The notes under the pieces were generated by a model, which made no database searches, was not told the DNA's origin, and saw nothing but the letters and a program-made list of their open reading frames with translations. A stretch of DNA of 50,514 bases from Desulfobulbaceae bacterium (GTDB lineage: Bacteria > Desulfobacterota > Desulfobulbia > Desulfobulbales > BM004): contig PKTW01000054.1 in NCBI GenBank assembly GCA_002868955.1, positions 1 to 50,514 on the forward strand, in the 5' to 3' direction. Position numbers and translations under genes: made by a program. Positions 7,872-18,705 of this stretch are shown here, one piece after another. Positions within the stretch are counted from its first letter, which is position 1. Every line of letters begins with the position of its first letter.

Positions 7872-9128
7872 CTATACGTCGTCAGCGTAGAGATGAGGAT
7901 AGAGCGGGAACCTTTCACACAGTTCCCTCACCTCGGAGCGGATCTTTTTTATTTCCTGCGCATCCCTGCGGTTCAATATCGCCCTGTTCATCCACTCAGC
8001 GATCTGTTCCATGTCACGTTCGATCAGACCGCGGCTGGTTACTGCCGGGGTCCCTATCCTGATGCCACCTGTGACGAAACGGCTTTGCGTATCAAATGGA
8101 AAGGCATTCTTATTGACTGTCAGTCCCGCGGACTCCAGGGTCTCTTCAGCATCTTTGCCGGTTATATCCTTGTTGGTCAGGTCCACGAGCAGCAAGTGGT
8201 TATCAGAACCGCCGGACACCAGCTTGAAACCATGACGGACCAAGGCTTCTCCCAGGGCCCGGGAATTTTTTACCACCTGTTGCTGATAAAGCACAAATTC
8301 CCGGGACATTGCCTCCTTGAAGCTCACTGCCTTGGCGGCAATGACATGCATCAGGGGGCCGCCCTGGATCCCGGGGAATATCTTGGAGTTCAAGCTTTTG
8401 CCATACTCCTCTTTCGCCAGGATCAGTCCTCCTCTGGGGCCGCGCATAGTTTTGTGTGTTGTGGTTGTAACATAATCTGCATAGGGCACCGGCGAGGGAT
8501 GCACCCCTGCTGCTACCAGGCCGGCGATATGAGCCATATCCACCATGAAAAGCGCGTCAATCTGATCGGCGATTAGCCTGAAGGCCTCAAAATCAATAAG
8601 TCGGGGATAGGCACTGGCACCTGCCACAATCATTCTAGGCCTGTGTTCATGGGCTACACGCTCAACTTCCTCCATGTTGATCGTACCCGTTTTCTTTTCA
8701 ACACCGTATGAGATAAAGTTGAAGAGCTGGCCTGAAAAGTTGACAGGGCTGCCATGGGTAAGGTGCCCGCCATGGGCCAGGTCCATGCCCAGAACCTTAT
8801 CACCGGGATTCAATGCCGCAAAATAGACAGCCATGTTCGCCTGGCTGCCGGAATGAGCCTGAACATTTGCGTATTCGGCCTGAAACAGTTCCTTGGCCCT
8901 GTCAATGGCCAGGTTTTCGACAGCGTCTGCATAATCACAGCCGCCATAATAGCGTTTACTGGGGTAGCCTTCGGCATACTTGTTGGTGAAAATTGAGCCC
9001 TGGGCTTCAAGTACTGCTTCGCTGACGATATTTTCCGAGGCAATGAGTTCGAGATAGTAGCGCTGGCGCTCCAATTCGTTCTTTATGGTGTTGTAGACTT
9101 CGGGATCTTGGTTTTTCAGAGTTGACAT
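7872..9128 (-). CDS. glyA: Serine hydroxymethyltransferase
   Basis: LIASEN; NKYAEGYP; GGHLTHG; [14 protein letters not shown] (PLP lysine). Confidence 0.98.
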
Positions 9129-9180
9129 TGTTGCTATGGACTCAGATTATTGTAAGTAATTGTAATGGGCTCGCCTATCC

Positions 9181-9603
9181 TTAAAACATATCAATCCGCC
9201 GCTGATGCCTGCCGCCGGCAAATTCAGAGGTCATCCAGGTCCGCACTATTTCCGCTGCCAGCCCCGGGCCGATTACCCTTGCCCCCAGACAGAGAATATT
9301 TGCATCATTGTGCTCCCGGCTCATCTTGGCGGAAAACATCTCATTGCAGAGGGCTGCCCTGATTCCGTGTATACGATTTGCAGCCATGGACATGCCGATG
9401 CCTGTCCCGCAAATAAGGATACCGCACTCGCATCCCCCTTCCTTTACCAGAGTACTCACAGATCTGGCAAAATTCGGATAGTCAACGGAATCAGTCGAGT
9501 TGCACCCCTGGTCGTCAACTGCGTGCCCCAGTTCGGTGAGCACCGCGACCACGGTTTTTTTCAAGTCGATCCCACCATGATCACAACCAATGGCTACCTT
9601 CAC
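9181..9603 (-). CDS. rpiB: Ribose-5-phosphate isomerase B
   Basis: GCDHGG; DYP; ICGTGIGMS; SREHNDAN; GGRHQRR; GTG start with GAGG RBS. Confidence 0.96.
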   Translation of the reverse strand: MKVAIGCDHGGIDLKKTVVAVLTELGHAVDDQGCNSTDSVDYPNFARSVSTLVKEGGCECGILICGTGIGMSMAANRIHGIRAALCNEMFSAKMSREHNDANILCLGARVIGPGLAAEIVRTWMTSEFAGGRHQRRIDMF

Positions 9604-9630
9604 GTTGTCACCTCAACAATAAAACAGGCG

Positions 9631-10872
9631 TTATTCTTCAAATTTCTTCATGACGAGGACTGCATTCGTGCCGCCAAAACCGAATGAATTAGAAAGAGCA
9701 GCCCTGATAAGGGTCTCTCTTGCCGTGTTAGGCACATAATCCAGATCACATTCCGGCTCAGGGTTTTCCAGGTTTATTGTCGGAGGAATAATCTGGTCCT
9801 TGATGGAGAGGGCCAAAAATACCGACTCAATTCCCCCGGCCCCACCAAGCATGTGACCGGTCATGGATTTTGTGGAACTGACGGCCAGTTTATATGCATG
9901 CCCGCCAAAGACGGTTTTTATTGCCCGGGTTTCCACCACATCGTTTAACGGAGTCGAGGTACCATGGGCGTTGATATAGTCAATATCCTCCGGAGTGCAC
10001 CCCGCGTCATCCAGGGCCATGCGCATGCACCGTACCGCACCGTCACCATCCTCCGGCGGCGCCGCCATGTGATACCCGTCCCCGGAAAGACCGAAGCCTA
10101 CGATCTCGGCAAGTATCCGAGCTCCGCGCCGTTGCGCGTGTTCAAGCTCTTCCAGGATCAGCATGCCGCCACCCTCGGAGATGATAAAACCGTCCCTGTC
10201 TCTGTCAAACGGCCTGCATGCCTTTTCCGGGTTTTCATTTTGCCTGGAAAGGGCTTTCATGGCGTTAAAACCGCCAACAGCAAGCGGACAGACCGTTGAT
10301 TCACTGCCGCCGGTAATGGCAGCGTCACAATCACCGCGGCTTATTGAACGGAAGGCTTCGCCCACCGCATGGGTTCCGGCAGCACAGGCTGTAGTCACCG
10401 AAAGATTTGGGCCCTTGGCGCCATACACGATGGAAATCTGGCCTGCACTCATGTTTGATATGACCATGGGAATGAAAAAAGGGGTGATCTTGCGGGGCCC
10501 CCTTTCCAGGGAGATCTTGTGGTACTTTTCAATGGTCTGCAGACCGCCGATACCATTCCCGGTAAAAACACCAACACGATTCGCATTGGCAGCATCAATG
10601 GTCAAAGCGGCTTCGTGCAGGGCCATGCCTGCCGTTGCCACCGCGTACTGCACAAAAAGATCAAGATGCCGCGCCAGTTTGGGCTCGATAAAATCTTCCG
10701 CGTTAAAATCCTTGACCTCAGCTGCAATTTTGACGCTGTAATCAGTGGTGTCAAAGCGTGTAATAAGGCCAATCCCGCTTTTTCCTGCACACAAATTGTG
10801 CCAGGTCTTTTCAGTTCCGGTGCCCAACGGGGTGACCAGACCGGTGCCTGTCACTACTACCCTGCGTTTCAT
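9631..10872 (-). CDS. fabF: 3-oxoacyl-ACP synthase II
   Basis: RRVVVTG; TACAAG (catalytic Cys); NAHGTST; GHMLGGAG; SNSFGFGG. Confidence 0.97.
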   Translation of the reverse strand: MKRRVVVTGTGLVTPLGTGTEKTWHNLCAGKSGIGLITRFDTTDYSVKIAAEVKDFNAEDFIEPKLARHLDLFVQYAVATAGMALHEAALTIDAANANRVGVFTGNGIGGLQTIEKYHKISLERGPRKITPFFIPMVISNMSAGQISIVYGAKGPNLSVTTACAAGTHAVGEAFRSISRGDCDAAITGGSESTVCPLAVGGFNAMKALSRQNENPEKACRPFDRDRDGFIISEGGGMLILEELEHAQRRGARILAEIVGFGLSGDGYHMAAPPEDGDGAVRCMRMALDDAGCTPEDIDYINAHGTSTPLNDVVETRAIKTVFGGHAYKLAVSSTKSMTGHMLGGAGGIESVFLALSIKDQIIPPTINLENPEPECDLDYVPNTARETLIRAALSNSFGFGGTNAVLVMKKFEE

Positions 10873-10999
10873 TCGTTTTCACCCATCAGAATTATATCCT
10901 GTATTCTGCCTTGGCCGGAAACGCCGTAAAAAAAAGCGGCTGACCATAAAATGTTATACCTTCGAGGCTAAGTCTTCAGGCCGCATACAGAGAGGGATC

Positions 11000-11230
11000 T
11001 TATGAAACTTTACTTACGTGATCTATGGCATGCTGGACCGTGGTGATTTTCTCGGCCACTTCATCAGGAATTTCAATACCGAAAGCTTCTTCCATTGCCA
11101 TGATAAGTTCAACAAGGTCCAGGGAATCTGCGCCAAGATCATCAACAAAAGAAGCGCCCGGCACCACCTTGTCCTTATCAACACTCAACTGCTCAACAAT
11201 GATATCAATCACTTTTTCTTCTGCCGACAT
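11000..11230 (-). CDS. acpP: Acyl carrier protein
   Basis: [12 protein letters not shown] phosphopantetheinylation motif; AAGGAG RBS before the ATG at 11230. Confidence 0.97.
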
Positions 11231-11347
11231 GTTCAAATCTCCTTAAGTAGTTGTTGTCTCATTAGTGATTATATATAAAGCATATCTGCTCAAATCAACA
11301 AATAAAACTTAGTATAATTTTTGTAAAGGATTGCGACGCGCACAATC

Positions 11348-12094
11348 TCATCCCATAAACATTCCGCCGTTGACATGAATGGCCTGTCCGGTGATGTACC
11401 TGGCATCATCGGACGCCAGATAGGTCACGGCAGCGGCAATATCTTCAGGCTTGCCGAGGCTGCCAAGGGGTATTTCTGCAAGGATTTTTTCCCTGACTGC
11501 TTCCGGCAGCTCACTGGTCATATCCGTATCAATGTACCCCGGTGCCACACAGTTCACAGTGATGGCGCGGGATGCCAATTCTCTGGCGCTTGAGCGGGTA
11601 AGCCCTACCAGCCCGGCTTTGGCCGCCGAATAATTCGCCTGGCCGGCATTGCCTGCAAAGCCGACAACCGAGGTGATGATAATTATCCGGCCCCACCGCT
11701 GTTTCATCATGGGCCTGCACCCGGCCTTGATGCAGTTGAAGGCGCCTTTCAGGTTAACTGCCATGACCTCGTCCCAGGCTTCTTCTTTCATTGTTGCGAT
11801 GAGACCATCCCTGGTGATCCCGGCATTGCAGACCAGGATGTCTATCCTGCCGCATTCGGCGCTTATCTGCTTAAAAGCTTCCTGCACCTCAGCGCTCTTT
11901 GCCACATCAAATTTGAGTACGACACATTCACTCCCCAGGGCTTCAACTTGCGCCTTGGTCTCTTCCGCAGCTTGCGGCCGGCTGACATAGTTTATTACCA
12001 CCCTGGCCCCCATTTTAGCAAGACGCAAACAGATGGCACGACCAATTCCTCTGCTGCCGCCGGTGACAACCGCTACTTTCCCAGCCAGACTCAT
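11348..12094 (-). CDS. fabG: 3-oxoacyl-ACP reductase
   Basis: TGGSRGIG; NAGITRD; NYSAAKAG; VAPGYIDTDM; fab cluster context. Confidence 0.96.
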   Translation of the reverse strand: MSLAGKVAVVTGGSRGIGRAICLRLAKMGARVVINYVSRPQAAEETKAQVEALGSECVVLKFDVAKSAEVQEAFKQISAECGRIDILVCNAGITRDGLIATMKEEAWDEVMAVNLKGAFNCIKAGCRPMMKQRWGRIIIITSVVGFAGNAGQANYSAAKAGLVGLTRSSARELASRAITVNCVAPGYIDTDMTSELPEAVREKILAEIPLGSLGKPEDIAAAVTYLASDDARYITGQAIHVNGGMFMG

Positions 12095-13284
12095 TATCCC
12101 TTTTTCTCCTTGATCTTTTCTATCAATTTCGGCACTACCTCAAACAGGTCGCCCACTATGCCATAGGTGGCAACGTCAAAAATAGGGGCATGGGGGTCCT
12201 TGTTGATAGCCACAATGGTCTCTGAAGACTGCATCCCGACCACGTGCTGGATAGCCCCTGAAATACCGCAGGCAATATACAGTTTCGGGTTGACGGTTTT
12301 TCCTGTCTGCCCGACCTGGTGAGGATATTGGATCCATGCAGAATCAACCGCGGCCCGCGAAGCTCCTACTGCCCCGCCTACAGCGTCGGCCAGCTGCCGT
12401 ATAAGCTCAAAGCCTTTTTCATTATCCAGGCCGCGGCCTCCTGCAACAATAATATCACCCTCGGTGATATTGACCTGGTCCTGCTCCTCCAGGACATTGC
12501 GCAATACCCTGACCCTGGATTGCAGACGTTCAGCTTGCGGCCGGTAATCAATAATGTCTCCCCGCCTGTCAGGATCAGGTGTTGTGGTTTTCATGACCCG
12601 CGGTCTGACAGTTGCCATTTGCGGCCTGGTATAGGGACATTCTATTGTGGCCATTATATTGCCCCCAAAGGCCGGCCTCGTCTGCAGCAAAACGCCGTCT
12701 TCAGGCCTGATTGCCAGCTGGGTGCAGTCTGCAGTAAGACCGGTTGCCAAAGCAGTTGCGACCAGAGGGATAAATGAACGGCCAATGGCCGTGGCGCCGG
12801 CCAGGACGATTTCAGGCTTATGCTCCCGAATGACATCCTCCAGGATATTGCCGTATATTTCGTCCGTAAAGAATTCCAGGGCCGGATCATCAACCCGATA
12901 GACAAGATCAGCACCATACGACACGAGATCTTCGGCCGCCCCGTCCATAGCGGAACCGAGAAGAACAGCGCTCAAGGGTACTTTCTGCTGGTCAGCAAGC
13001 TGGCGCCCGATGCCAAGCAGCTCAAAGGATACCGGTGCCACTTTGCCATGCCGATATTCCGCATATATCATAATACCTGACCATTCGGCCAGGTCTGCCT
13101 GCGCAGTTTTCGCCGTGGCCTCAATACTCAGGGCCCCCGCTTCACAACTGTCAACACAGGATCCGCAGAGTGTGCACTTCTCATTGACCACGGCGACACC
13201 GTCAACAACCTTAATGGCCTCAAAAGTGCAAACCTCTTCGCAGACGCCACAGCCTATGCAGGTTTCTATATCAATTCGCAGCAT
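12094..13284 (-). CDS. etfA: Electron transfer flavoprotein alpha subunit with N-terminal 2x[4Fe-4S] ferredoxin domain (CarE-like)
   Basis: CIGCGVCEEVC and CTLCGSCVDSC; GLTADC; TRPAFGGN; QVGQTGK; GISGAIQH; stop overlaps the fabG start (TAATG). Confidence 0.93.
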   Translation of the reverse strand: MLRIDIETCIGCGVCEEVCTFEAIKVVDGVAVVNEKCTLCGSCVDSCEAGALSIEATAKTAQADLAEWSGIMIYAEYRHGKVAPVSFELLGIGRQLADQQKVPLSAVLLGSAMDGAAEDLVSYGADLVYRVDDPALEFFTDEIYGNILEDVIREHKPEIVLAGATAIGRSFIPLVATALATGLTADCTQLAIRPEDGVLLQTRPAFGGNIMATIECPYTRPQMATVRPRVMKTTTPDPDRRGDIIDYRPQAERLQSRVRVLRNVLEEQDQVNITEGDIIVAGGRGLDNEKGFELIRQLADAVGGAVGASRAAVDSAWIQYPHQVGQTGKTVNPKLYIACGISGAIQHVVGMQSSETIVAINKDPHAPIFDVATYGIVGDLFEVVPKLIEKIKEKKG

Positions 13285-13286
13285 AA

Positions 13287-14066
13287 TTAAAGATACGGTT
13301 CAAGTTTATGCACCAGCTGTTCAACCTGCTCATCAACAGTCCCGTGCAGCATTGCCCTTTGACCCTTGAATTCAGGCGAAAAGACCTTTACCACCTGGGT
13401 CGTGGAACCGGGAAGGCCGATGCTGTCAGGATCGGCCCCGATATCTTCAGCATTCAGGGTTTTAATGCTCAAACTTTTTGCCTTCATCTTTCCCTTCAAC
13501 GAGGGGACCCGCGGCTCATTTATTTCTTTAACCACGGTGAGCAGGCCCGGCAGCGGGATTTCTACTTCATCGTAACCGTCATCCATCAAGCGCTGCAGAG
13601 ACAAAACGCCCCTTTCAAAACCGGTTATTTTCCTGACATAACTGACATACGGGATATCCAAACGCTTGGCCAAGCCGGGGCCAACCTGGGCCGTATCCCC
13701 GTCAATGGCCTGTTTGCCGCAGACAATCAGATCAAAGGGGCCATTCTTCATAATGGCCTTGCCCAGGGTATAGGTAGTGGCCCAGGTATCGGCACCTGCA
13801 AAAGCACGGTCGGAAACAAGAACCGCGGCGTCTGCCCCGCAGGCAACAGCCTCCCGCAGAACAGTCTCTGCCTGTGGCGGGCCCATACTGACAACAGTTA
13901 CCGTGCCGCCATGCTGCTCTTTGAGGCGTACAGCCTCCTCCAGCGCATGCCGGTCAAAGGGGTTCATGATGGACTCCACCCCTTCCCGTGCCATGGTGTT
14001 GGTCTTGGGGTCCAGACGGACATCTTTGGCGTCAGGGACCTGTTTTATGCAAACAATAATGTTCAT
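13287..14066 (-). CDS. etfB: Electron transfer flavoprotein beta subunit
   Basis: IIVCIKQVPD; NPFD; SMGP; FAGADTWAT; GKQAIDGDTAQVG; INEPR. Confidence 0.95.
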   Translation of the reverse strand: MNIIVCIKQVPDAKDVRLDPKTNTMAREGVESIMNPFDRHALEEAVRLKEQHGGTVTVVSMGPPQAETVLREAVACGADAAVLVSDRAFAGADTWATTYTLGKAIMKNGPFDLIVCGKQAIDGDTAQVGPGLAKRLDIPYVSYVRKITGFERGVLSLQRLMDDGYDEVEIPLPGLLTVVKEINEPRVPSLKGKMKAKSLSIKTLNAEDIGADPDSIGLPGSTTQVVKVFSPEFKGQRAMLHGTVDEQVEQLVHKLEPYL

Positions 14067-14121
14067 GGGGTGCTTTTAATAAATTTAACGTTGCTTGTGA
14101 ACTGTGGATATTTCCTTGCGG

Positions 14122-15279
14122 TCAGATTTTTTTAGTATATTCCTTGTTGAGCTCCTGGCCTATGACATTTCTCTGGATTTGGTTTGTCCCTTCATATATC
14201 TGGAGTATTTTTGCATCACGCATCATTTTCTCCACGGGATATTCGCGCATATAGCCATAACCCCCAAGAACCTGGACCGCATTGGTGGTGACTTTCATTG
14301 CCATGTCGGTGGCAAAAACCTTACACATGGATGAGGCTTTAGACATATCTTTCGGATGGGCGGCTATATGCTTGGCGGCAGCATAAACCAGGGCCCTGGA
14401 TGCCTCAACCTCCATCGCCATATCAGCCAGCATATGCTGGATCGCCTGAAATGAGATAATCGGCTTACCGAATTGGACCCGTTGTTTAGCATATGTTACC
14501 GCTTCATCGAGTGCTGCCTGCCCTAATCCCACGCCCAGAATCGCAATTCCCGGGCGGGACAGATCCAGCGTTTTCATGACTGTTATAAATCCCATACCCT
14601 CACGCCCGATTAAGCGATCCTTGGGAATACGACAGTTCTTGAAAATCAATTCACAGGTGGCGGAAGCCCGGATACCCATTTTCTTTTCTTTTGGTCCACA
14701 GGAAAATCCCGGGTCAGTGTCTTCAACCACAAACATGGAAGCGCCGCGCGCGCCCTTGCTCCTGTCGGTAATGGCAACTACTGAATAAATTTGTGCTTCA
14801 CCGGCATTGGTTATCCACTGCTTGGTACCGTTCAGCACCCATTCGTCACCATCGGGTACAGCCGTGGTCTGGATTCCTGATGCATCACTGCCGGCATTTG
14901 CTTCGGTGAGGGCAAAAGCGGCTTTCTTTTTCCCACTTGCAACATCCGGCATATATTTTTGTTTCATTTCTTCGCTACCGGACAATAATATTGGATAAGC
15001 CCCCAGGGCACTGGCAGCAAAGCTTGTCGCAATTGCTACACAGCCACGCCCGAATTGTTCCAATGCCAGTACTATTTCAAAACAGCCGCCTCCGTATCCA
15101 CCATATTCTTCCGGGATGTAAAGACCAAAAAGATCTGCCTGGGCAATATCGTTAAGTATTTCTGTGGCAAACTCTTCTTTTTCATCGAGCTCTGCCCGTA
15201 CTGGTATAATTTTATCATCCGCTATCTGCCGGGCAATATCGACGATCATCTGTTGTTCTTCGGTTAAAAAATAGTCCAC
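14122..15279 (-). CDS. Acyl-CoA dehydrogenase (butyryl-CoA dehydrogenase/CarC-like)
   Basis: FALTEANAGSDA; NGTKQWITN; KMGIRAS; RVQFGKPI; GGYGY; QIYEGTNQIQ with catalytic Glu; GTG start with AAGGGG RBS. Confidence 0.93.
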   Translation of the reverse strand: MDYFLTEEQQMIVDIARQIADDKIIPVRAELDEKEEFATEILNDIAQADLFGLYIPEEYGGYGGGCFEIVLALEQFGRGCVAIATSFAASALGAYPILLSGSEEMKQKYMPDVASGKKKAAFALTEANAGSDASGIQTTAVPDGDEWVLNGTKQWITNAGEAQIYSVVAITDRSKGARGASMFVVEDTDPGFSCGPKEKKMGIRASATCELIFKNCRIPKDRLIGREGMGFITVMKTLDLSRPGIAILGVGLGQAALDEAVTYAKQRVQFGKPIISFQAIQHMLADMAMEVEASRALVYAAAKHIAAHPKDMSKASSMCKVFATDMAMKVTTNAVQVLGGYGYMREYPVEKMMRDAKILQIYEGTNQIQRNVIGQELNKEYTKKI

Positions 15280-15511
15280 GATTATCCCCTTGGTTTTCAG
15301 TATTCCCTAAATTTGATACATCCGTGAAAGTCTCACCGGGCAGCTACAGGGCCTCATAAATTAATGTGGTACAGGTGAAAACCGGTCCGTCGAATGTTTT
15401 CTGCGCGACCGACAATATTTTGAAATTCAGAAATAACAAAGTTTTATACTCTGTTCTCTACCCTGCAGGCAAGCTCAAAACAAATATATTTCTGCAGAAT
15501 CATCAAATGGG

Positions 15512-16516
15512 CTACCAGCGCCAGAGCACCACTCCCCACGTAAAACCTCCGCCAAATACGCTGAATAACAGGAGGTCTCCTTTTTGCAGCCGTCCTTCAC
15601 GGTTGGCCTCATCAAGGGCTGCGGGAAGACTGGCTGCAGATGAGTTACCATACTTTTGAATGGTGGTATAGACCTTTTTAAAGGGCAGGTTGACCCGTTC
15701 GGCCAGGCTCTTGAGAATCCTGATATTGGCCTGGTGCGGAATGAGAAGGCTGACGTCATCCAGCGTGATCCCTTCCCGCTCGAGCAGATTTTCAACAGCA
15801 TTTCCCATTTCACGTACAGCATGTTTAAAAACATCCTTTCCGACCATGTTGAATGCCGAACCATCACAAAATTTGTTGCGCTCTGGAACGGCACCATAAT
15901 CTACAGCAGGGCAGTAACGGCGTGGCGCAGCATCCAGCGACAGCAGTTGCCAAAGACGCCCATCACTGTAAAGCTGGCTGGCAAGCATACCTGCATCGCT
16001 TTTACTGCCTGAAACGACACAGGCACCGGCACCATCCCCGAAAAGAACACAGGTATTACGGTCCTGCCAGTCTACCCGGGATGAAAGTGTCTCCGCTCCT
16101 ATCACCAGGATTTTCATGTCAGGAGCATTCTTTAAATACCTGTCTGCAATCTCCAGGGCATAGACAAAACCGGAACAGGCTGCACTGACATCAAAGGCAA
16201 AGGCGGTCTCAGCACCGATTTCCTTCTGGACAAGGCAGGCACACGAGGGCATTACCATTTCGGCAGTGATGGTGCCCACAATTATCATGTCCAGTTCCAG
16301 GGCGGTAATACCAGCCATCTCCATGGCACTGATGGCAGCCCGGGTTGCCATTTTTGACGTCTCTTCACCGGGGCCGGCTATTCTTCTGCTCCTGATACCT
16401 GTACGGGTGGTTATCCATTCATCACTGGTCCTGACGATCTTTTCCAGTTCCTTGTTGGTCAGAATGTACTTTGGCAGATATGAACCTGTGCCGATAATAG
16501 TTGCCCTACCGGTCAT
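15512..16516 (-). CDS. fabH: 3-oxoacyl-ACP synthase III
   Basis: TSDEWITTRTGI; Cys-His-Asn triad in AACSGF, PHQAN, GNSSAAS; FGDGAGA; FGGGFTWG. Confidence 0.96.
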   Translation of the reverse strand: MTGRATIIGTGSYLPKYILTNKELEKIVRTSDEWITTRTGIRSRRIAGPGEETSKMATRAAISAMEMAGITALELDMIIVGTITAEMVMPSCACLVQKEIGAETAFAFDVSAACSGFVYALEIADRYLKNAPDMKILVIGAETLSSRVDWQDRNTCVLFGDGAGACVVSGSKSDAGMLASQLYSDGRLWQLLSLDAAPRRYCPAVDYGAVPERNKFCDGSAFNMVGKDVFKHAVREMGNAVENLLEREGITLDDVSLLIPHQANIRILKSLAERVNLPFKKVYTTIQKYGNSSAASLPAALDEANREGRLQKGDLLLFSVFGGGFTWGVVLWRW

Positions 16517-17574
16517 GCATCTTCTCCCGGCCCTATGACTGCAGCGGTCTCCTTCGGCTCTGTCTGAGCAGACCTCTGGTCAGACTCGGAAAGAAGCTGA
16601 AGTATATGGTAGTTTACTTTGCTGCGGATCATTTCTGCGGCTACCTTTATGGCATTCTTAATGGCTTTGGCATTGGAACGGCCATGGCAGACAATTCCCG
16701 TACCGTTTATACCCAGCAAGGGGGCACCCCCGTATTCAGCGTAATCAACCCTTTTGCCGAAGTTGCCAAAGGCCTTTTTAGCCAGCAGATATCCCATTTT
16801 CGCCATAAAACTCTTTGACATTTCAATGCGCAGCATGGAAATAATTGCTTCAGCCAGGCCCTCGCTCACTTTCAAACAGACATTGCCGACAAAACCGTCA
16901 CAGACAATAACGTCAACATTACCCTGGAAAATATCCCGGCCTTCAACATTACCGATAAAATTAAGTGAACTCTTCCGAAAGAGTTCGTGGGCGCTCTTGA
17001 CCAGGACATTTCCCTTGCCTCCCTCTTCTCCAATGCTGAGCAGGCCGATGCTTGGCCTTTTGATCCGGAAGAGGTTGTCTGAAAATGCTGCACCCATAAC
17101 GCCAAACTGGAACAAATGCTGTGGGCGGCAGTCGACATTTGCCCCCACATCCATCATAACAAGGGGCTTTTTCAGAGTTGGGAATGCGTTTGCAATACCG
17201 GGCCTTGATATGTTTTCCAGACGGCCCAGTGACCTGATGGCTGAGGCCAGGGTAGCGCCGGAATTCCCTGCGCTGACAACAGCATCAGCTTCACCTTTCT
17301 TGACGCAGGCAAATGCTTTTACTATGGATGAGTCCTTCTTTTTCCGTATAGCTTCAAAAGGCGGCTCATCCATGGAAACTGTTTGTGAAGCATGAATGAC
17401 ATGCAACCTGGAGGGGGGCAAGGACTGCTTCTGTAATACTCTGTTGAGAATATTTTCATCACCGATGAGTACTACATTCAGGTCAGACTCCTCAACAGCC
17501 TGTATCGCCCCGGCAACCATCTCGTCCGGGCCCAGCTCGCCACCCATGGCATCCAGGGCAATACGCAATGTCAC
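16513..17574 (-). CDS. plsX: Phosphate acyltransferase PlsX
   Basis: IALDAMGG; SAGNSGA; DVGAN; IGEEGGKG; CDGFVGN; GGAPLLG; HGRS. Confidence 0.96.
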   Translation of the reverse strand: MTLRIALDAMGGELGPDEMVAGAIQAVEESDLNVVLIGDENILNRVLQKQSLPPSRLHVIHASQTVSMDEPPFEAIRKKKDSSIVKAFACVKKGEADAVVSAGNSGATLASAIRSLGRLENISRPGIANAFPTLKKPLVMMDVGANVDCRPQHLFQFGVMGAAFSDNLFRIKRPSIGLLSIGEEGGKGNVLVKSAHELFRKSSLNFIGNVEGRDIFQGNVDVIVCDGFVGNVCLKVSEGLAEAIISMLRIEMSKSFMAKMGYLLAKKAFGNFGKRVDYAEYGGAPLLGINGTGIVCHGRSNAKAIKNAIKVAAEMIRSKVNYHILQLLSESDQRSAQTEPKETAAVIGPGEDA

Positions 17575-17577
17575 GTT

Positions 17578-17766
17578 TTACTCCATTTCTTCTTCAAGCT
17601 TGATTACGGTTCTATCCTTGTAGGTGCCGCAGCCGCCGCATAGCCTGTGCGAGAGCTTCGGCTCTCCGCATTTGGGGCAGCTTGAGACAGACGCAGGAGT
17701 TAACGAATCATGGGATCGTCTTTTCCTTGTTCTTGAATGGGAATGTCTACGTTTGGGTAAAGCCAC
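17578..17766 (-). CDS. rpmF: 50S ribosomal protein L32
   Basis: MALPKRRHS..R..KRRSH; CPKC and CGGC zinc ligands; GGAGG RBS. Confidence 0.96.
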   Translation of the reverse strand: MALPKRRHSHSRTRKRRSHDSLTPASVSSCPKCGEPKLSHRLCGGCGTYKDRTVIKLEEEME

Positions 17767-17877
17767 TTTCTAACCTCCGAATATATATATAATTTTCTTT
17801 TACAGTATAATTTATGAAGAACTAAAAATTTCTTCCAAAAAATCTGCTTTGTAATTGCCCAATACTAAACAGCGGAG

Positions 17878-17905
17878 ACTATAAAAAATTATCTATGGTT
17901 GTCAA
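17878..17905 (-). promoter_or_regulatory. Putative sigma70 promoter of the rpmF-plsX-fab operon
   Basis: Minus strand TTGACA-16 nt-TATAGT, about 110 nt upstream of rpmF. Confidence 0.5.
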
Positions 17906-18001
17906 GTCAATTTTCCGGTTGAAGCGCTCTTTATTACAACTCATAGGGCTTTTTATCCCCCACATCATTTATCACATCCAACCGGGTTGTAAAAATCAGT
18001 A

Positions 18002-18511
18002 TCACAAACAGCGGCACGGCTCTGTCCTCATGTTCCGCAGCCAACTCAAAATAGCCAGTATAATAAAGAAATTAGCGGAAAAGAGGCTGTATTGTCCTGC
18101 CATTCCTGCCATATTTGAGAACTTTTCAATTACATACCCGAGGGGATAACTGACTATTATGGAAGAAAGGGCAAGATACCCAATGGTATGTGCGAAAAAC
18201 AACAAAAAAGCTGTCAGGAGTTTTCCCACATGAAAAAACATGTTCTCCTTCAAGCGTCCAAGCGCTCGTTCCGCAACCAGAAGAACATAGCCTAACAGCG
18301 CTCCCGGCAGGAGGGTCCAGAGAACCAGGAAGGAGTCCACTTCATGGAAATACGAAAAAAGCAGGGAGATTGCAGCAGTTATAAATAAATATGCCAATAC
18401 CATTACGGTTACGGCATAAGCACCTGGCCTTAAGGGCTGACCGTCAAAAATCCTGGCCTTTGACACCCGGCGAAATCTGCTTCTTTTTTTCCCTATGCCT
18501 TCTGTATACAT
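18002..18511 (-). CDS. Hypothetical integral membrane protein
   Basis: 169-aa ORF with a basic N-terminus and 4-5 hydrophobic segments; no family recognised. Confidence 0.55.
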   Translation of the reverse strand: MYTEGIGKKRSRFRRVSKARIFDGQPLRPGAYAVTVMVLAYLFITAAISLLFSYFHEVDSFLVLWTLLPGALLGYVLLVAERALGRLKENMFFHVGKLLTAFLLFFAHTIGYLALSSIIVSYPLGYVIEKFSNMAGMAGQYSLFSANFFIILAILSWLRNMRTEPCRCL

Positions 18512-18705
18512 TGCAATAATATTTATCGGTAATGACTGCTTTTCCGGCTTTTATTTCCCGGGCAGCATTTTTATGACATATCGGATTGTCACAGGGAAGC
18601 AGTGTTTCTGGAACAAATCACACCATTGCAAGACCTGTCTGTCTCTGTCGTGATCCGTGATAGGATGGATACGTTTTCTTTTGGGGTTTACCAATAACGG
18701 CTGCG

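What the first reader, a model, noticed from the sequence alone, without database searches (positions are those of the whole stretch)
11348..16516. Bifurcating-type acyl-CoA dehydrogenase/EtfAB module in the fabD slot of the fatty-acid synthesis operon
Seen: the order is rpmF-plsX-fabH-ACAD-etfB-etfA-fabG-acpP-fabF on one strand. etfB and etfA are 2 nt apart, and the etfA stop overlaps the fabG start (TAATG, 12092-12096). No fabD and no enoyl-ACP reductase gene (fabI/K/L/V) is present in the window. Known: the canonical cluster has fabD between fabH and fabG. ACAD-etfB-etfA with a ferredoxin-fused EtfA matches the architecture of Acetobacterium CarCDE, which, like clostridial Bcd-EtfAB, reduces enoyl-CoA with NADH while co-reducing ferredoxin. 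Inference: this complex could be a non-canonical, ferredoxin-coupled enoyl-ACP (or enoyl-CoA) reductase for membrane lipid synthesis, or it could supply short or branched acyl-CoA primers to FabH. Either role would link FASII to flavin-based electron bifurcation, which I do not know to have been described.
Basis: partly seen in the sequence, partly recalled or inferred. Interest (0 to 1): 0.85.

Follow-up and report, generated by a model that had tools for sequence, protein, structure and literature searches.

The report
Flavoprotein reductase inside fatty-acid synthesis operon
An acyl-CoA-dehydrogenase-type flavoenzyme and its electron-transfer flavoprotein sit inside the fatty-acid synthesis operon of this sulfate-reducer-related bacterium and of most of its phylum, and they may be a previously unrecognised kind of the enzyme that finishes each round of fatty-acid elongation.

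Summary
The minus strand reads rpmF-plsX-fabH-ACAD-etfB-etfA(ferredoxin-fused)-fabG-acpP-fabF-rpiB, with a TAATG etfA/fabG overlap. It is not a quirk of one genome. All 80 Desulfobulbales loci have it, and the ACAD ortholog lies in the fab cluster in 43 of 44 sampled families of the phylum. etfBA follows it in 30 of those 43; in some families fabD follows it. So it is an extra operon member, not a fabD replacement. The ACAD is as conserved as AcpP. In this genome it is the only ACAD and the only Etf, and no crotonase, 3-hydroxyacyl-CoA dehydrogenase or thiolase was found. That leaves no CoA pathway for it to serve. In 400 genomes of the phylum the ortholog (202) and FabI (64) co-occur in only 4. 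One family of the window's own order lacks ACAD-etfBA at exactly this place and has FabI instead. Many carriers showed no FabI, FabL or FabV, and their only FabK-like protein is a FabX homolog. Best reading (about 0.5): an Etf-dependent, probably bifurcating, enoyl-ACP reductase of FASII. Caveats: this genome also has FabL, about a third of carriers have FabK-like genes, relatives are not independent, and there is no biochemistry.

The parts
17878..17905 (-). sigma-70-like promoter match upstream of rpmF (TTGACA-16-TATAGT, 11 of 12)
   Evidence: a consensus match only
17578..17766 (-). rpmF (ribosomal protein L32), first gene of the conserved cluster
   Evidence: TIGR01031, 77.6 bits
16513..17574 (-). 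plsX phosphate acyltransferase; overlaps fabH by 4 nt
   Evidence: TIGR00182, 367 bits, over cut-off
15512..16516 (-). fabH beta-ketoacyl-ACP synthase III
   Evidence: NF006829, 413 bits, over cut-off
15280..15511 (.). 232-nt spacer between fabH and the ACAD; no Rfam match
   Evidence: about 15-30 nt in many relatives
14122..15279 (-). acyl-CoA-dehydrogenase-family flavoenzyme (385 aa, GTG start). The catalytic Glu363 in YEGT is invariant in 60 orthologs. Proposed enoyl-ACP reductase subunit.
13287..14066 (-). etfB, small Etf subunit of the bifurcating clade
   Evidence: CarD 256 bits; non-bifurcating Etf-beta 68-102 bits
12094..13284 (-). etfA, large Etf subunit with an N-terminal 2x[4Fe-4S] ferredoxin domain (two CxxCxxCxxxC motifs in residues 9-47). 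Its stop overlaps the fabG start (TAATG).
11348..12094 (-). fabG 3-oxoacyl-ACP reductase
   Evidence: TIGR01830, 343 bits, over cut-off
11000..11236 (-). acpP acyl carrier protein
   Evidence: NF002149, 112 bits, over cut-off
9631..10872 (-). fabF beta-ketoacyl-ACP synthase II
   Evidence: TIGR03150, 645 bits, over cut-off
9181..9603 (-). rpiB, conserved last gene of the cluster across the phylum

Best explanation
The ACAD, together with EtfB and the ferredoxin-fused EtfA, is a dedicated part of type II fatty-acid synthesis: an enoyl-ACP reductase built on the butyryl-CoA dehydrogenase/Etf design.

Inferred mechanism. NADH reduces the bifurcating FAD of EtfB. One electron path runs through the EtfA FAD to the ACAD FAD, which reduces the trans-2-enoyl thioester made by FabZ. 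The other path reduces ferredoxin, with the two [4Fe-4S] clusters of EtfA as the likely outlet. Each elongation round would then save part of the free energy of enoyl reduction as reduced ferredoxin.

Shown here: gene identities, the architecture, conservation of the operon position across the phylum, near-exclusive distribution with FabI, and the lack of CoA-pathway partner enzymes in this genome.

Inferred only: that the substrate is enoyl-ACP, the direction of the reaction, the use of NADH and the reduction of ferredoxin.

In this genome the function may be shared with FabL.
For: 1. Position.
- The order rpmF-plsX-fabH-ACAD-etfB-etfA-fabG-acpP-fabF-rpiB is kept in all 80 Desulfobulbales loci as far as each contig reaches. 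These loci were found through EtfA.
- Flanks were fetched for 45 ortholog loci from 44 families. In 43 families the ACAD lies inside the rpmF/plsX...fabG/acpP/fabF cluster.
- etfA and fabG are translationally coupled.

2. Constraint. Median identity to the window's proteins over those 43 families: ACAD 69%, AcpP 68%, FabF 62%, FabG 55%, FabH 52%, PlsX 49%. Sixty orthologs share 77% mean column identity and an invariant catalytic Glu.

3. No other job in this genome (93% complete).
- It has one ACAD, one EtfA and one EtfB (tblastn, E <= 1e-5).
- It has no ECH_1 hit, no 3HCDH hit over the cut-off and no Thiolase_C hit. The controls rang in 12-14 of 14 genomes.
- FabZ is present.

4. Complementary distribution.
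- Of 400 genomes of the phylum, 202 have the ortholog (best E <= 1e-130) and 64 have FabI (NF005717, E <= 1e-60).
- Both occur in 3 by score, and in 4 after inspection of G400.
- G353 belongs to the window's own order and is 99% complete. It has rpmF-plsX-fabH-fabG-acpP-fabF-rpiB with no ACAD or etf, and it has FabI (285.6 bits).

5. A vacant ENR role.
- Of 100 carriers among the first 200 genomes, 48 showed no FabI, no FabL over the cut-off, no FabV and no FabK-like match at 1e-35. Without family f34 the count is 42 of 94.
- Five such genomes were inspected. In all five the only sizeable NMO-family protein is a FabX homolog. For G106 it scores 268 bits against 7e1q over the full length and keeps the 4Fe-4S cysteines; FabK scores 72 bits. 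The extra SDR in these genomes is generic.

6. Machinery that fits. The best solved relatives are the bifurcating C. difficile Bcd (5ol2_C; 395 bits for the protein, 489 for the clade profile) and CarDE (419 and 256 bits). Non-bifurcating Etfs score 68-173 bits.

7. Etf availability. An EtfA homolog is present in 179 of 201 genomes. That includes carriers whose cluster lacks etf: family f16 has a ferredoxin-fused copy elsewhere, 50-52% identical.

8. Expression, weak. Contigs of RNA libraries from 4 studies cover the cluster and bridge the acpP/fabG, etfA/etfB, etfB/ACAD and fabH/plsX junctions.

9. Outside hint. In S. fumaroxidans, which cannot grow on butyrate or crotonate, the Bcd-like Sfum_1371 was abundant under all conditions (PMC5947623, passages). 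That it is orthologous to this ACAD is my recollection; I did not verify it.
Against: - No biochemical or genetic test exists. Enoyl-ACP as substrate is inferred from context only.
- This genome has a FabL over NCBI's curated cut-off (366.8 against 328 bits) and a FabI-like SDR (168 bits) next to a KAS III-like gene. The ACAD is therefore not needed here to explain enoyl reduction.
- FabL also co-occurs with the ortholog in 5 of 6 genomes of family f23 and 2 of 5 of f2.
- 33 of 100 carriers have FabK-like proteins at E <= 1e-60, some above 300 bits. Four genomes have both FabI and the ortholog.
- About 16-22 of 100 non-carriers also showed none of the four ENR families. 'None found' is thus partly a limit of detection.
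- Related genomes are not independent. The exclusion with FabI may rest on a handful of events. The cut-offs (1e-130; FabI at 237 bits or E <= 1e-60) were chosen after seeing the score distributions.
- 12 of 43 families have the ACAD in the cluster without adjacent etf genes, and several cluster EtfAs lack the ferredoxin domain. Coupling to ferredoxin is therefore not universal.
- The nearest solved enzymes are short-chain Bcds. An ENR must accept C4 to C16-18, and this was not examined.
- All known ACAD-type reductases of this design act on CoA esters.
Confidence: 0.5

Rival explanations
1. The module works on ACP-bound acyl chains within FASII but is not the elongation-cycle reductase. For example, it could be an acyl-ACP dehydrogenase (confurcating, driven by reduced ferredoxin) that makes a trans-2 or cis-3 enoyl intermediate for unsaturated or otherwise modified fatty acids.
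For: The operon position and conservation are as for the main reading. No FabA was found in this genome. ACAD-family enzymes that act on carrier-protein-bound substrates exist; the PDB titles seen were prolyl-ACP dehydrogenase 4irn and prolyl-PCP dehydrogenase 6af6. The co-occurrence with FabL and FabK-like proteins in part of the carriers would be unproblematic.
Against: The genomes already carry a FabX homolog, the known acyl-ACP dehydrogenase/isomerase for anaerobic unsaturated fatty acids. This genome's copy keeps the four cluster cysteines aligned to FabX C300/C304/C308/C320 (PMC8626469, passages). This reading does not predict the near-exclusion with FabI or the FabI swap in G353. It also leaves about half of the carriers without a recognised ENR.
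Confidence: 0.12
2. It is an ordinary CoA-level Bcd/EtfAB (or CarCDE/AcrABC-like) reductase. It makes butyryl- or other short acyl-CoA primers for FabH, or it serves redox balancing, and it merely shares the operon.
For: The best family and structure matches are CoA-dependent enzymes: AcrC 421.5 bits, C. difficile Bcd 395 bits. The gene lies directly downstream of fabH in this genome.
Against: All NCBIfam equivalog scores are far below their cut-offs (AcrC 421.5 against 640). No crotonase, 3-hydroxyacyl-CoA dehydrogenase or thiolase was found in this 93% complete genome to supply an enoyl-CoA. fabH is absent from the cluster in 23 of the 43 families that keep the ACAD (found in 20 of 43). The anti-correlation with FabI is not explained.
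Confidence: 0.15
3. Conserved neighbourhood without a functional link. An ancestral insertion of an energy-metabolism ACAD-Etf module was frozen in a highly expressed operon, and its substrate is unrelated to lipids.
For: Genes outside FASII (rpmF, rpiB) are also conserved members of the same cluster. Family f34 keeps ACAD-etfBA outside the cluster.
Against: The ACAD stays while its neighbours vary (fabH present or not, etfBA present or not, fabD or fabZ inserted). It is under stronger constraint than most fab genes. It is lost exactly where FabI is present.
Confidence: 0.1

Closest known systems
Clostridial butyryl-CoA dehydrogenase/EtfAB complex (PDB 5ol2, C. difficile; first described in C. 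kluyveri)
   Same: The ACAD core has the same catalytic YEG glutamate. The clade profile scores 489 bits against 5ol2_C, and EtfA and EtfB score 306 and 228 bits against 5ol2_A and 5ol2_B. The gene order ACAD-etfB-etfA is the same. The presumed chemistry is the same: reduction of a trans-2-enoyl thioester by NADH through Etf, with co-reduction of ferredoxin.
   Different: The module is embedded in the FASII operon instead of a crotonase/Hbd/thiolase butyrate operon. Those partner genes were not found in this genome. EtfA carries a ferredoxin domain. The proposed substrate is ACP-bound and of all chain lengths.
Acetobacterium woodii caffeyl-CoA reductase CarCDE (PDB 6fah)
   Same: It is the best solved match for both Etf subunits. 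CarE scores 419 bits, aligned 4-391 against 5-391 and including the N-terminal 2x[4Fe-4S] domain. CarD scores 256 bits.
   Different: CarC scores lower (320 bits) than Bcd for the ACAD. The Car system belongs to a phenylacrylate respiration operon. Here the neighbours are fabH and fabG.
Classical enoyl-ACP reductases FabI/FabL/FabV (SDR) and FabK (FMN TIM barrel)
   Same: The proposed reaction and pathway step are the same, as is the residence in fab gene clusters. The distribution is complementary to FabI.
   Different: The protein family is unrelated (ACAD fold, FAD). The enzyme needs a separate two-subunit electron carrier. Enoyl reduction would be coupled to ferredoxin reduction rather than being a simple NAD(P)H-dependent step.
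Helicobacter pylori FabX (PDB 7e1q)
   Same: It is a flavoenzyme that carries out ACAD-like alpha,beta redox chemistry on acyl-ACP within FASII, and it depends on an iron-sulfur cluster (PMC8626469, passages).
   Different: FabX belongs to the NMO family and runs in the oxidising direction for unsaturated fatty acids. A FabX homolog is encoded separately in this genome (G000 contig C5) and in 5 of 5 carriers inspected.

Membership tests
Acyl-CoA dehydrogenase superfamily | N-terminal, middle and C-terminal ACAD domains, with the catalytic glutamate in the C-terminal YEG motif | tested here: met
   PF02771, PF02770 and PF00441 all score over their cut-offs. ...ILQIYEGTNQIQR... is present. E363 is invariant in 60 orthologs.
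Electron-bifurcating Bcd/Car-type ACAD-EtfAB complexes | EtfA and EtfB belong to the bifurcating clade (second FAD in EtfB instead of AMP) | tested here: inconclusive
   The evidence is by score only. Bifurcating Etfs score 296-419 bits (EtfA) and 208-256 bits (EtfB); non-bifurcating ones score 136-173 and 68-102 bits. The published sequence motifs could not be read, because Garcia Costas 2017 is not held.
Electron-bifurcating Bcd/Car-type ACAD-EtfAB complexes | N-terminal 2x[4Fe-4S] ferredoxin domain on EtfA, as in CarE | tested here: met
   Fer4 Pfam hits cover residues 3-57. Two CxxCxxCxxxC motifs are present. The alignment to CarE starts at residue 4. The domain is not universal: several orthologous cluster EtfAs match only from residues 48-65 on.
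Electron-bifurcating Bcd/Car-type ACAD-EtfAB complexes | NADH-dependent reduction of an enoyl-CoA coupled to reduction of ferredoxin | not testable with these tools
   This needs an enzyme assay.
Acryloyl-CoA reductase AcrABC (best NCBIfam names) | Scores over the curated equivalog cut-offs | tested here: not met
   AcrC 421.5 against 640, AcrB 243.5 against 475, AcrA 357.2 against 600.
Carrier-protein-dependent ACAD homologs (MbtN, RedW/PigA) | Scores over the curated cut-offs | tested here: not met
   MbtN 69 against 700, RedW 245 against 650, PigA 237 against 500.
FASII enoyl-ACP reductase (functional class) | Membership in a known ENR protein family (FabI, FabL, FabV, FabK) | tested here: not met
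   The ACAD and Etf subunits match only ACAD and ETF families. If the protein is an ENR, it is of a new family.
FASII enoyl-ACP reductase (functional class) | Conserved residence in the fab operon and a distribution complementary to known ENRs | tested here: met
   43 of 44 families have the ACAD in the cluster. The ortholog and FabI co-occur in 4 of 400 genomes. The pattern is only partial for FabK-like proteins (33 of 100 carriers) and FabL.
FASII enoyl-ACP reductase (functional class) | Catalyses the reduction of trans-2-enoyl-ACP | not testable with these tools
   No assay was possible.

The most novel reading that the evidence does not exclude
Most Desulfobacterota (Thermodesulfobacteriota) make their membrane fatty acids with an ACAD/Etf enoyl-ACP reductase in place of FabI, FabK, FabL or FabV. 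Through flavin-based electron bifurcation, every elongation cycle then also reduces ferredoxin. Lipid synthesis in these energy-limited anaerobes would be partly energy-conserving, and a new structural class of ENR, naturally insensitive to FabI inhibitors, would exist.
Probability: 0.35. Interest if true: 0.92.

Novelty: new variant of a known kind. Interest (0 to 1): 0.8.

Why it matters
Enoyl-ACP reductase is the rate-controlling and best-studied drug-target step of bacterial fatty-acid synthesis. The known isozymes belong to two folds: SDR (FabI, FabL, FabV) and the FMN TIM barrel (FabK). This statement is from my own knowledge.

An ACAD/Etf-type enzyme would add a third, three-subunit class. 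It would also be the first link between FASII and flavin-based electron bifurcation. My literature searches found no such description.

It would fill the missing ENR step in metabolic reconstructions of many sulfate reducers, syntrophs and cable bacteria. It would give a housekeeping explanation for the 'Bcd/Etf' proteins seen in organisms that do not use butyrate. It would also change the estimated energy and redox cost of lipid synthesis in anaerobes that live near the thermodynamic limit.

Tried and rejected
- A complex prediction of two ACAD copies with AcpP, each given as an alignment (A1, A2), returned 'no answer' (score 0.00, mark 0.32). It counts neither for nor against binding.
- A FabV search with Pfam PF12241 in the own genome found nothing, but its control rang nowhere, so it is uninformative. 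I replaced it with NF010177, which found one true FabV in 201 genomes and none in G000.
- I first read the NMO-family protein on C5 as 'FabK-like'. I dropped that reading after it aligned to FabX with the four cluster cysteines kept.
- I considered and set aside the generic SDR of about 280 aa (own C7; G106, G139, G170, G154) as a hidden FabI. Its best names are glucose dehydrogenase, pteridine reductase and FabG, all below their cut-offs.
- An Rfam scan of 9000-18600 gave only a chance-level miRNA match. The 232-nt fabH-ACAD spacer remains unexplained.
- Parts of the cluster without listed RNA-library contigs (the fabG/etfA junction and the full fabH-ACAD spacer) are not evidence of anything.
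- Literature: six full-text searches found no paper describing an ACAD/Etf in a fab operon or as an ENR. Subscription journals and supplements are not covered. Two papers were not held: Garcia Costas 2017 and Pereira 2011. Supplementary proteome tables that may list these proteins, for example for S. fumaroxidans or cable bacteria, could not be seen.
- I could not test whether Sfum_1371 is the ortholog.
- I did not examine chain-length capacity or an ACP-docking surface of the ACAD, because no model coordinates are available to scripts.

Full report
**What is there.**
On the minus strand of the window lie ten genes in a row:
- rpmF (17578-17766)
- plsX (16513-17574)
- fabH (15512-16516)
- an acyl-CoA-dehydrogenase-family gene, here called the ACAD (14122-15279)
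- etfB (13287-14066)
- etfA (12094-13284)
- fabG (11348-12094)
- acpP (11000-11236)
- fabF (9631-10872)
- rpiB (9181-9603)

The fab genes pass NCBI's curated cut-offs. etfB and etfA are 2 nt apart. The etfA stop and the fabG start share TAATG. plsX and fabH overlap by 4 nt. A 232-nt spacer separates fabH from the ACAD. A strong sigma-70-like site lies upstream of rpmF.

**What the three proteins are.**
- The ACAD has the three ACAD domains and the catalytic glutamate in YEGT. Its best solved relative is the Bcd of the bifurcating C. difficile Bcd-EtfAB complex (5ol2_C, 395 bits).
- A profile of 60 orthologs scores 489 bits against that Bcd, about 420 against medium-chain ACADs and about 402 against CarC.
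- EtfA has an N-terminal domain with two CxxCxxCxxxC motifs. It matches CarE of the A. woodii caffeyl-CoA reductase over its whole length (419 bits).
- EtfB matches CarD (256 bits).
- Non-bifurcating Etfs score only 136-173 bits (EtfA) and 68-102 bits (EtfB).
- No NCBIfam equivalog cut-off is reached; for example AcrC scores 421.5 against 640.

In design this is a Bcd/CarCDE-type module. By score it is a member of none of the named enzyme families.

**The rest of this genome.**
The genome is G000: 2.66 Mb, 189 contigs, 93% complete.
- fabD exists on another contig, between lspA and ffh.
- A FabL passes the curated cut-off (366.8 against 328 bits). A FabI-like SDR (168 bits, below its cut-offs) lies next to a KAS III-like gene.
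- No FabV was found.
- The NMO-family protein that first looked FabK-like (178 bits against a cut-off of 453) aligns to H. pylori FabX. It keeps four cysteines at the positions of FabX C300, C304, C308 and C320. In FabX that 4Fe-4S domain replaces the NAD(P)H motif of FabK, and the enzyme is an acyl-ACP dehydrogenase/isomerase for unsaturated fatty acids (PMC8626469, passages read).
- The operon ACAD and Etf are the only ACAD, EtfA and EtfB in the genome (tblastn).
- No crotonase-family hit, no 3-hydroxyacyl-CoA dehydrogenase over the cut-off and no thiolase C-domain was found, although the controls rang in 12-14 of 14 reference genomes.
- FabZ is present and FabA is not.

I therefore find no CoA-level pathway that could feed a butyryl-CoA dehydrogenase or use its product. 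The enoyl thioester that this genome demonstrably makes is FabZ's enoyl-ACP.

**How widespread the arrangement is.**
- A scan with EtfA returned 80 loci (the best 80 of 165 confirmed), all from Desulfobulbales by their record titles: Desulfobulbus, Desulfocapsa, Desulfopila, Desulfurivibrionaceae, Electrothrix, Electronema. Every one shows the same gene order as far as its contig reaches. The ACAD was found in 74 loci, fabH in 72 and fabG in 78.
- A search with the ACAD in 400 further genomes of the phylum gave a bimodal score distribution, with peaks near 1e-100 and 1e-170 and a trough at 1e-120 to 1e-140. 202 genomes lie in the high mode.
- I fetched the flanks of the high-mode gene in 45 genomes of 44 families. 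In 43 families it lies in the rpmF/plsX...fabG/acpP/fabF/rpiB cluster.
- The exception is family f34: small closed genomes, 54-55% identity. There ACAD-etfB-etfA stands apart from the cluster.
- The neighbours vary. etfBA follows the ACAD in 30 of the 43 families, does not in 12, and one contig ends too early to tell.
- In six of the families without etf, a FabD that passes its cut-off follows the ACAD. One family has ACAD-etfB-etfA-fabD-fabG, and one has ACAD-fabZ.
- fabH precedes the ACAD in only 20 of 43 families.

The ACAD is thus a constant extra member of the operon. It is not a replacement for fabD and not an appendage of fabH.

It is also the most constrained gene of the cluster. Median identity to the window's proteins over the 43 families is 69% for the ACAD. 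The other values are AcpP 68, FabF 62, EtfB 56, EtfA 55, FabG 55, L32 54, FabH 52 and PlsX 49.

**Distribution against the known enoyl-ACP reductases.**
FabI:
- FabI (NF005717, E <= 1e-60; the model rings in 7 FabI-bearing control genomes from several phyla) is present in 64 of the 400 genomes.
- Only 3 of those 64 are in the high ACAD mode (G001 and G396 of family f6, and G213). A fourth, G400, has the operon ACAD cut off by a contig end.
- The crude odds ratio is 0.03. Relatives are not independent, so no weight should be put on a P value.
- G353 is the most telling case. It belongs to the window's own order, is 99% complete and has no ACAD candidate at all. Its cluster reads rpmF-plsX-fabH-fabG-acpP-fabF-rpiB, with fabG 150 nt behind fabH, and it has a FabI (285.6 bits) elsewhere.

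FabL and FabV:
- FabL passes its cut-off in only 9 of 201 genomes: this one, five of family f23, two of f2 and one other.
- FabV was found in 1 of 201.

FabK-like proteins:
- FabK-like matches form a continuum.
- 33 of 100 carriers among the first 200 genomes have one at E <= 1e-60.
- 10 have only a weak one.
- 48 have none at 1e-35 and also no FabI, FabL or FabV. Without f34 that is 42 of 94.

Five carriers without a recognised ENR were inspected (G106 is closed; G139, G170, G077 and G154 are 99-100% complete):
- The only sizeable NMO-family protein scores 77-122 bits against the FabK model.
- For G106 it scores 268 bits against FabX over its whole length, with the cysteine motif kept.
- The only other adh_short_C2 proteins are FabG itself and generic SDRs.

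For comparison, about 16-22 of 100 non-carriers also showed none of the four families. The detection is therefore imperfect.

**Etf availability.**
An EtfA homolog occurs in 179 of 201 genomes. That includes carriers whose cluster lacks etf: family f16 has a ferredoxin-fused copy elsewhere, 50-52% identical. The FabI families f10, f27, f45, f52, f64, f70 and f72 have none. Some cluster EtfAs lack the ferredoxin domain.

**Expression.**
Thirteen runs on record as RNA hold at least part of the stretch. Contigs of four of them, from four studies of sediment and estuary samples, cover 27-30 of 30 bins of 9000-18600. Pieces bridge rpiB/fabF/acpP, acpP/fabG, etfA/etfB, etfB/ACAD and fabH/plsX. DNA can be present in such libraries, and a contig does not prove a single transcript, so this is only weak support.

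A proteome paper on S. fumaroxidans reports a Bcd-like protein (Sfum_1371) that was abundant under all conditions in an organism unable to use butyrate or crotonate (PMC5947623, passages). That this gene is the ortholog is my recollection and was not tested.

**Interpretation.**
The best-supported reading is that the ACAD with EtfBA is an enoyl-ACP reductase of FASII, built on the Bcd/Etf design and probably bifurcating (confidence about 0.5). Four points set it above its rivals:
- the position in the operon is constant across deep divergence while the neighbours change;
- the constraint on the protein equals that on AcpP;
- this genome has no other conceivable substrate pathway;
- the module is absent exactly where FabI is present, including within the window's own order.

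The unsaturated-fatty-acid alternative is weakened because a FabX homolog already fills that role. The primer-supply alternative is weakened by the missing CoA enzymes and by the families that lack fabH in the cluster.

Against the main reading:
- there is no biochemistry;
- this genome has FabL;
- about a third of carriers have FabK-like proteins;
- four genomes have both the ortholog and FabI;
- the score cut-offs were chosen after the fact;
- the genomes are phylogenetically dependent;
- the nearest solved enzymes are short-chain Bcds, so chain-length capacity is an open problem.

**Novelty.**
Six full-text searches found no description of an ACAD/Etf in a fab operon or acting as an ENR. 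Coverage excludes most subscription journals and all supplements. The machinery is a known kind. Its pathway context and its proposed ACP substrate would be new.

Noticed in passing
L082:5369-6921 (Ca. Electronema aureum) and L064:5556-6687 (Ca. Electrothrix laxa): In nine cable-bacteria loci (L060, L064, L070, L077, L079, L080, L082, L087, L092) etfB and etfA are 0.6-2.5 kb apart. The gap was looked at in two. It holds toxin-antitoxin or defence-type genes: MazE + PIN_3 + AbiJ_NTD4 in L082, and BrnT + an Mrr_cat protein in L064. They sit inside the fab operon, and the content differs between the two genera.
   Followed up: partly
G000 contig C5:12306-13211 (L002:1477-2451, minus strand), outside the window: A 324-aa NMO-family protein lies between pcnB and hisS. 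It has the cysteines C257, C261, C265 and C270 aligned to the [4Fe-4S] ligands of H. pylori FabX. It is a candidate anaerobic route to unsaturated fatty acids in a genome without FabA. Similar proteins (E 1e-53 to 1e-55 against the FabK model) occur in all 6 genomes of the order among the first 200 sampled.
   Followed up: partly
G000 contig C46:11800-13700 (L094:3828-5686), outside the window: A FabI-like SDR (168 bits, below all FabI cut-offs) lies directly upstream of a KAS III-like gene and near an alpha/beta hydrolase, kdsA and pyrG. This may be a separate small acyl-chain pathway. FabI-like proteins of similar score are present in all 5 f2 genomes sampled.
   Followed up: partly
G000 contig C166:390-6223, outside the window: A second set of FabF-like (33% identical to FabF), FabG-like (276 bits, below cut-off) and FabZ-like (105 bits) genes sits on one contig.
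   Followed up: no
G000 contig C167:24713-25465, outside the window: FabL (over its cut-off) stands alone between a DUF362 gene and a photolyase-like gene. In the phylum sample it is patchy: 9 of 201 genomes, mostly one family. This suggests lateral acquisition.
   Followed up: partly
window 15280-15511: The 232-nt non-coding spacer between fabH and the ACAD is about 120-230 nt in the closest relatives but only about 15-30 nt in many Desulfobulbaceae. It has no Rfam match and no convincing promoter.
   Followed up: partly
L120:4940-5680 (family f14): An LmtA-like lipid A Kdo2 1-phosphate O-methyltransferase homolog (233.6 bits, below the cut-off of 325) is inserted between etfB and etfA.
   Followed up: no
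L138, L139 (family f34, closed genomes of 1.6-1.8 Mb): ACAD-etfB-etfA (54-55% identical ACAD) lies outside the rpmF-plsX cluster. In one genome it is next to a divergently transcribed fabF-like gene. These genomes have a single ACAD and showed no FabI, FabK, FabL or FabV.
   Followed up: partly
window 9181-9603 and all related loci: rpiB is a conserved last gene of the rpmF...fabF cluster across the phylum. It was found in 34 of 43 family loci and in 67 of 80 Desulfobulbales loci.
   Followed up: no
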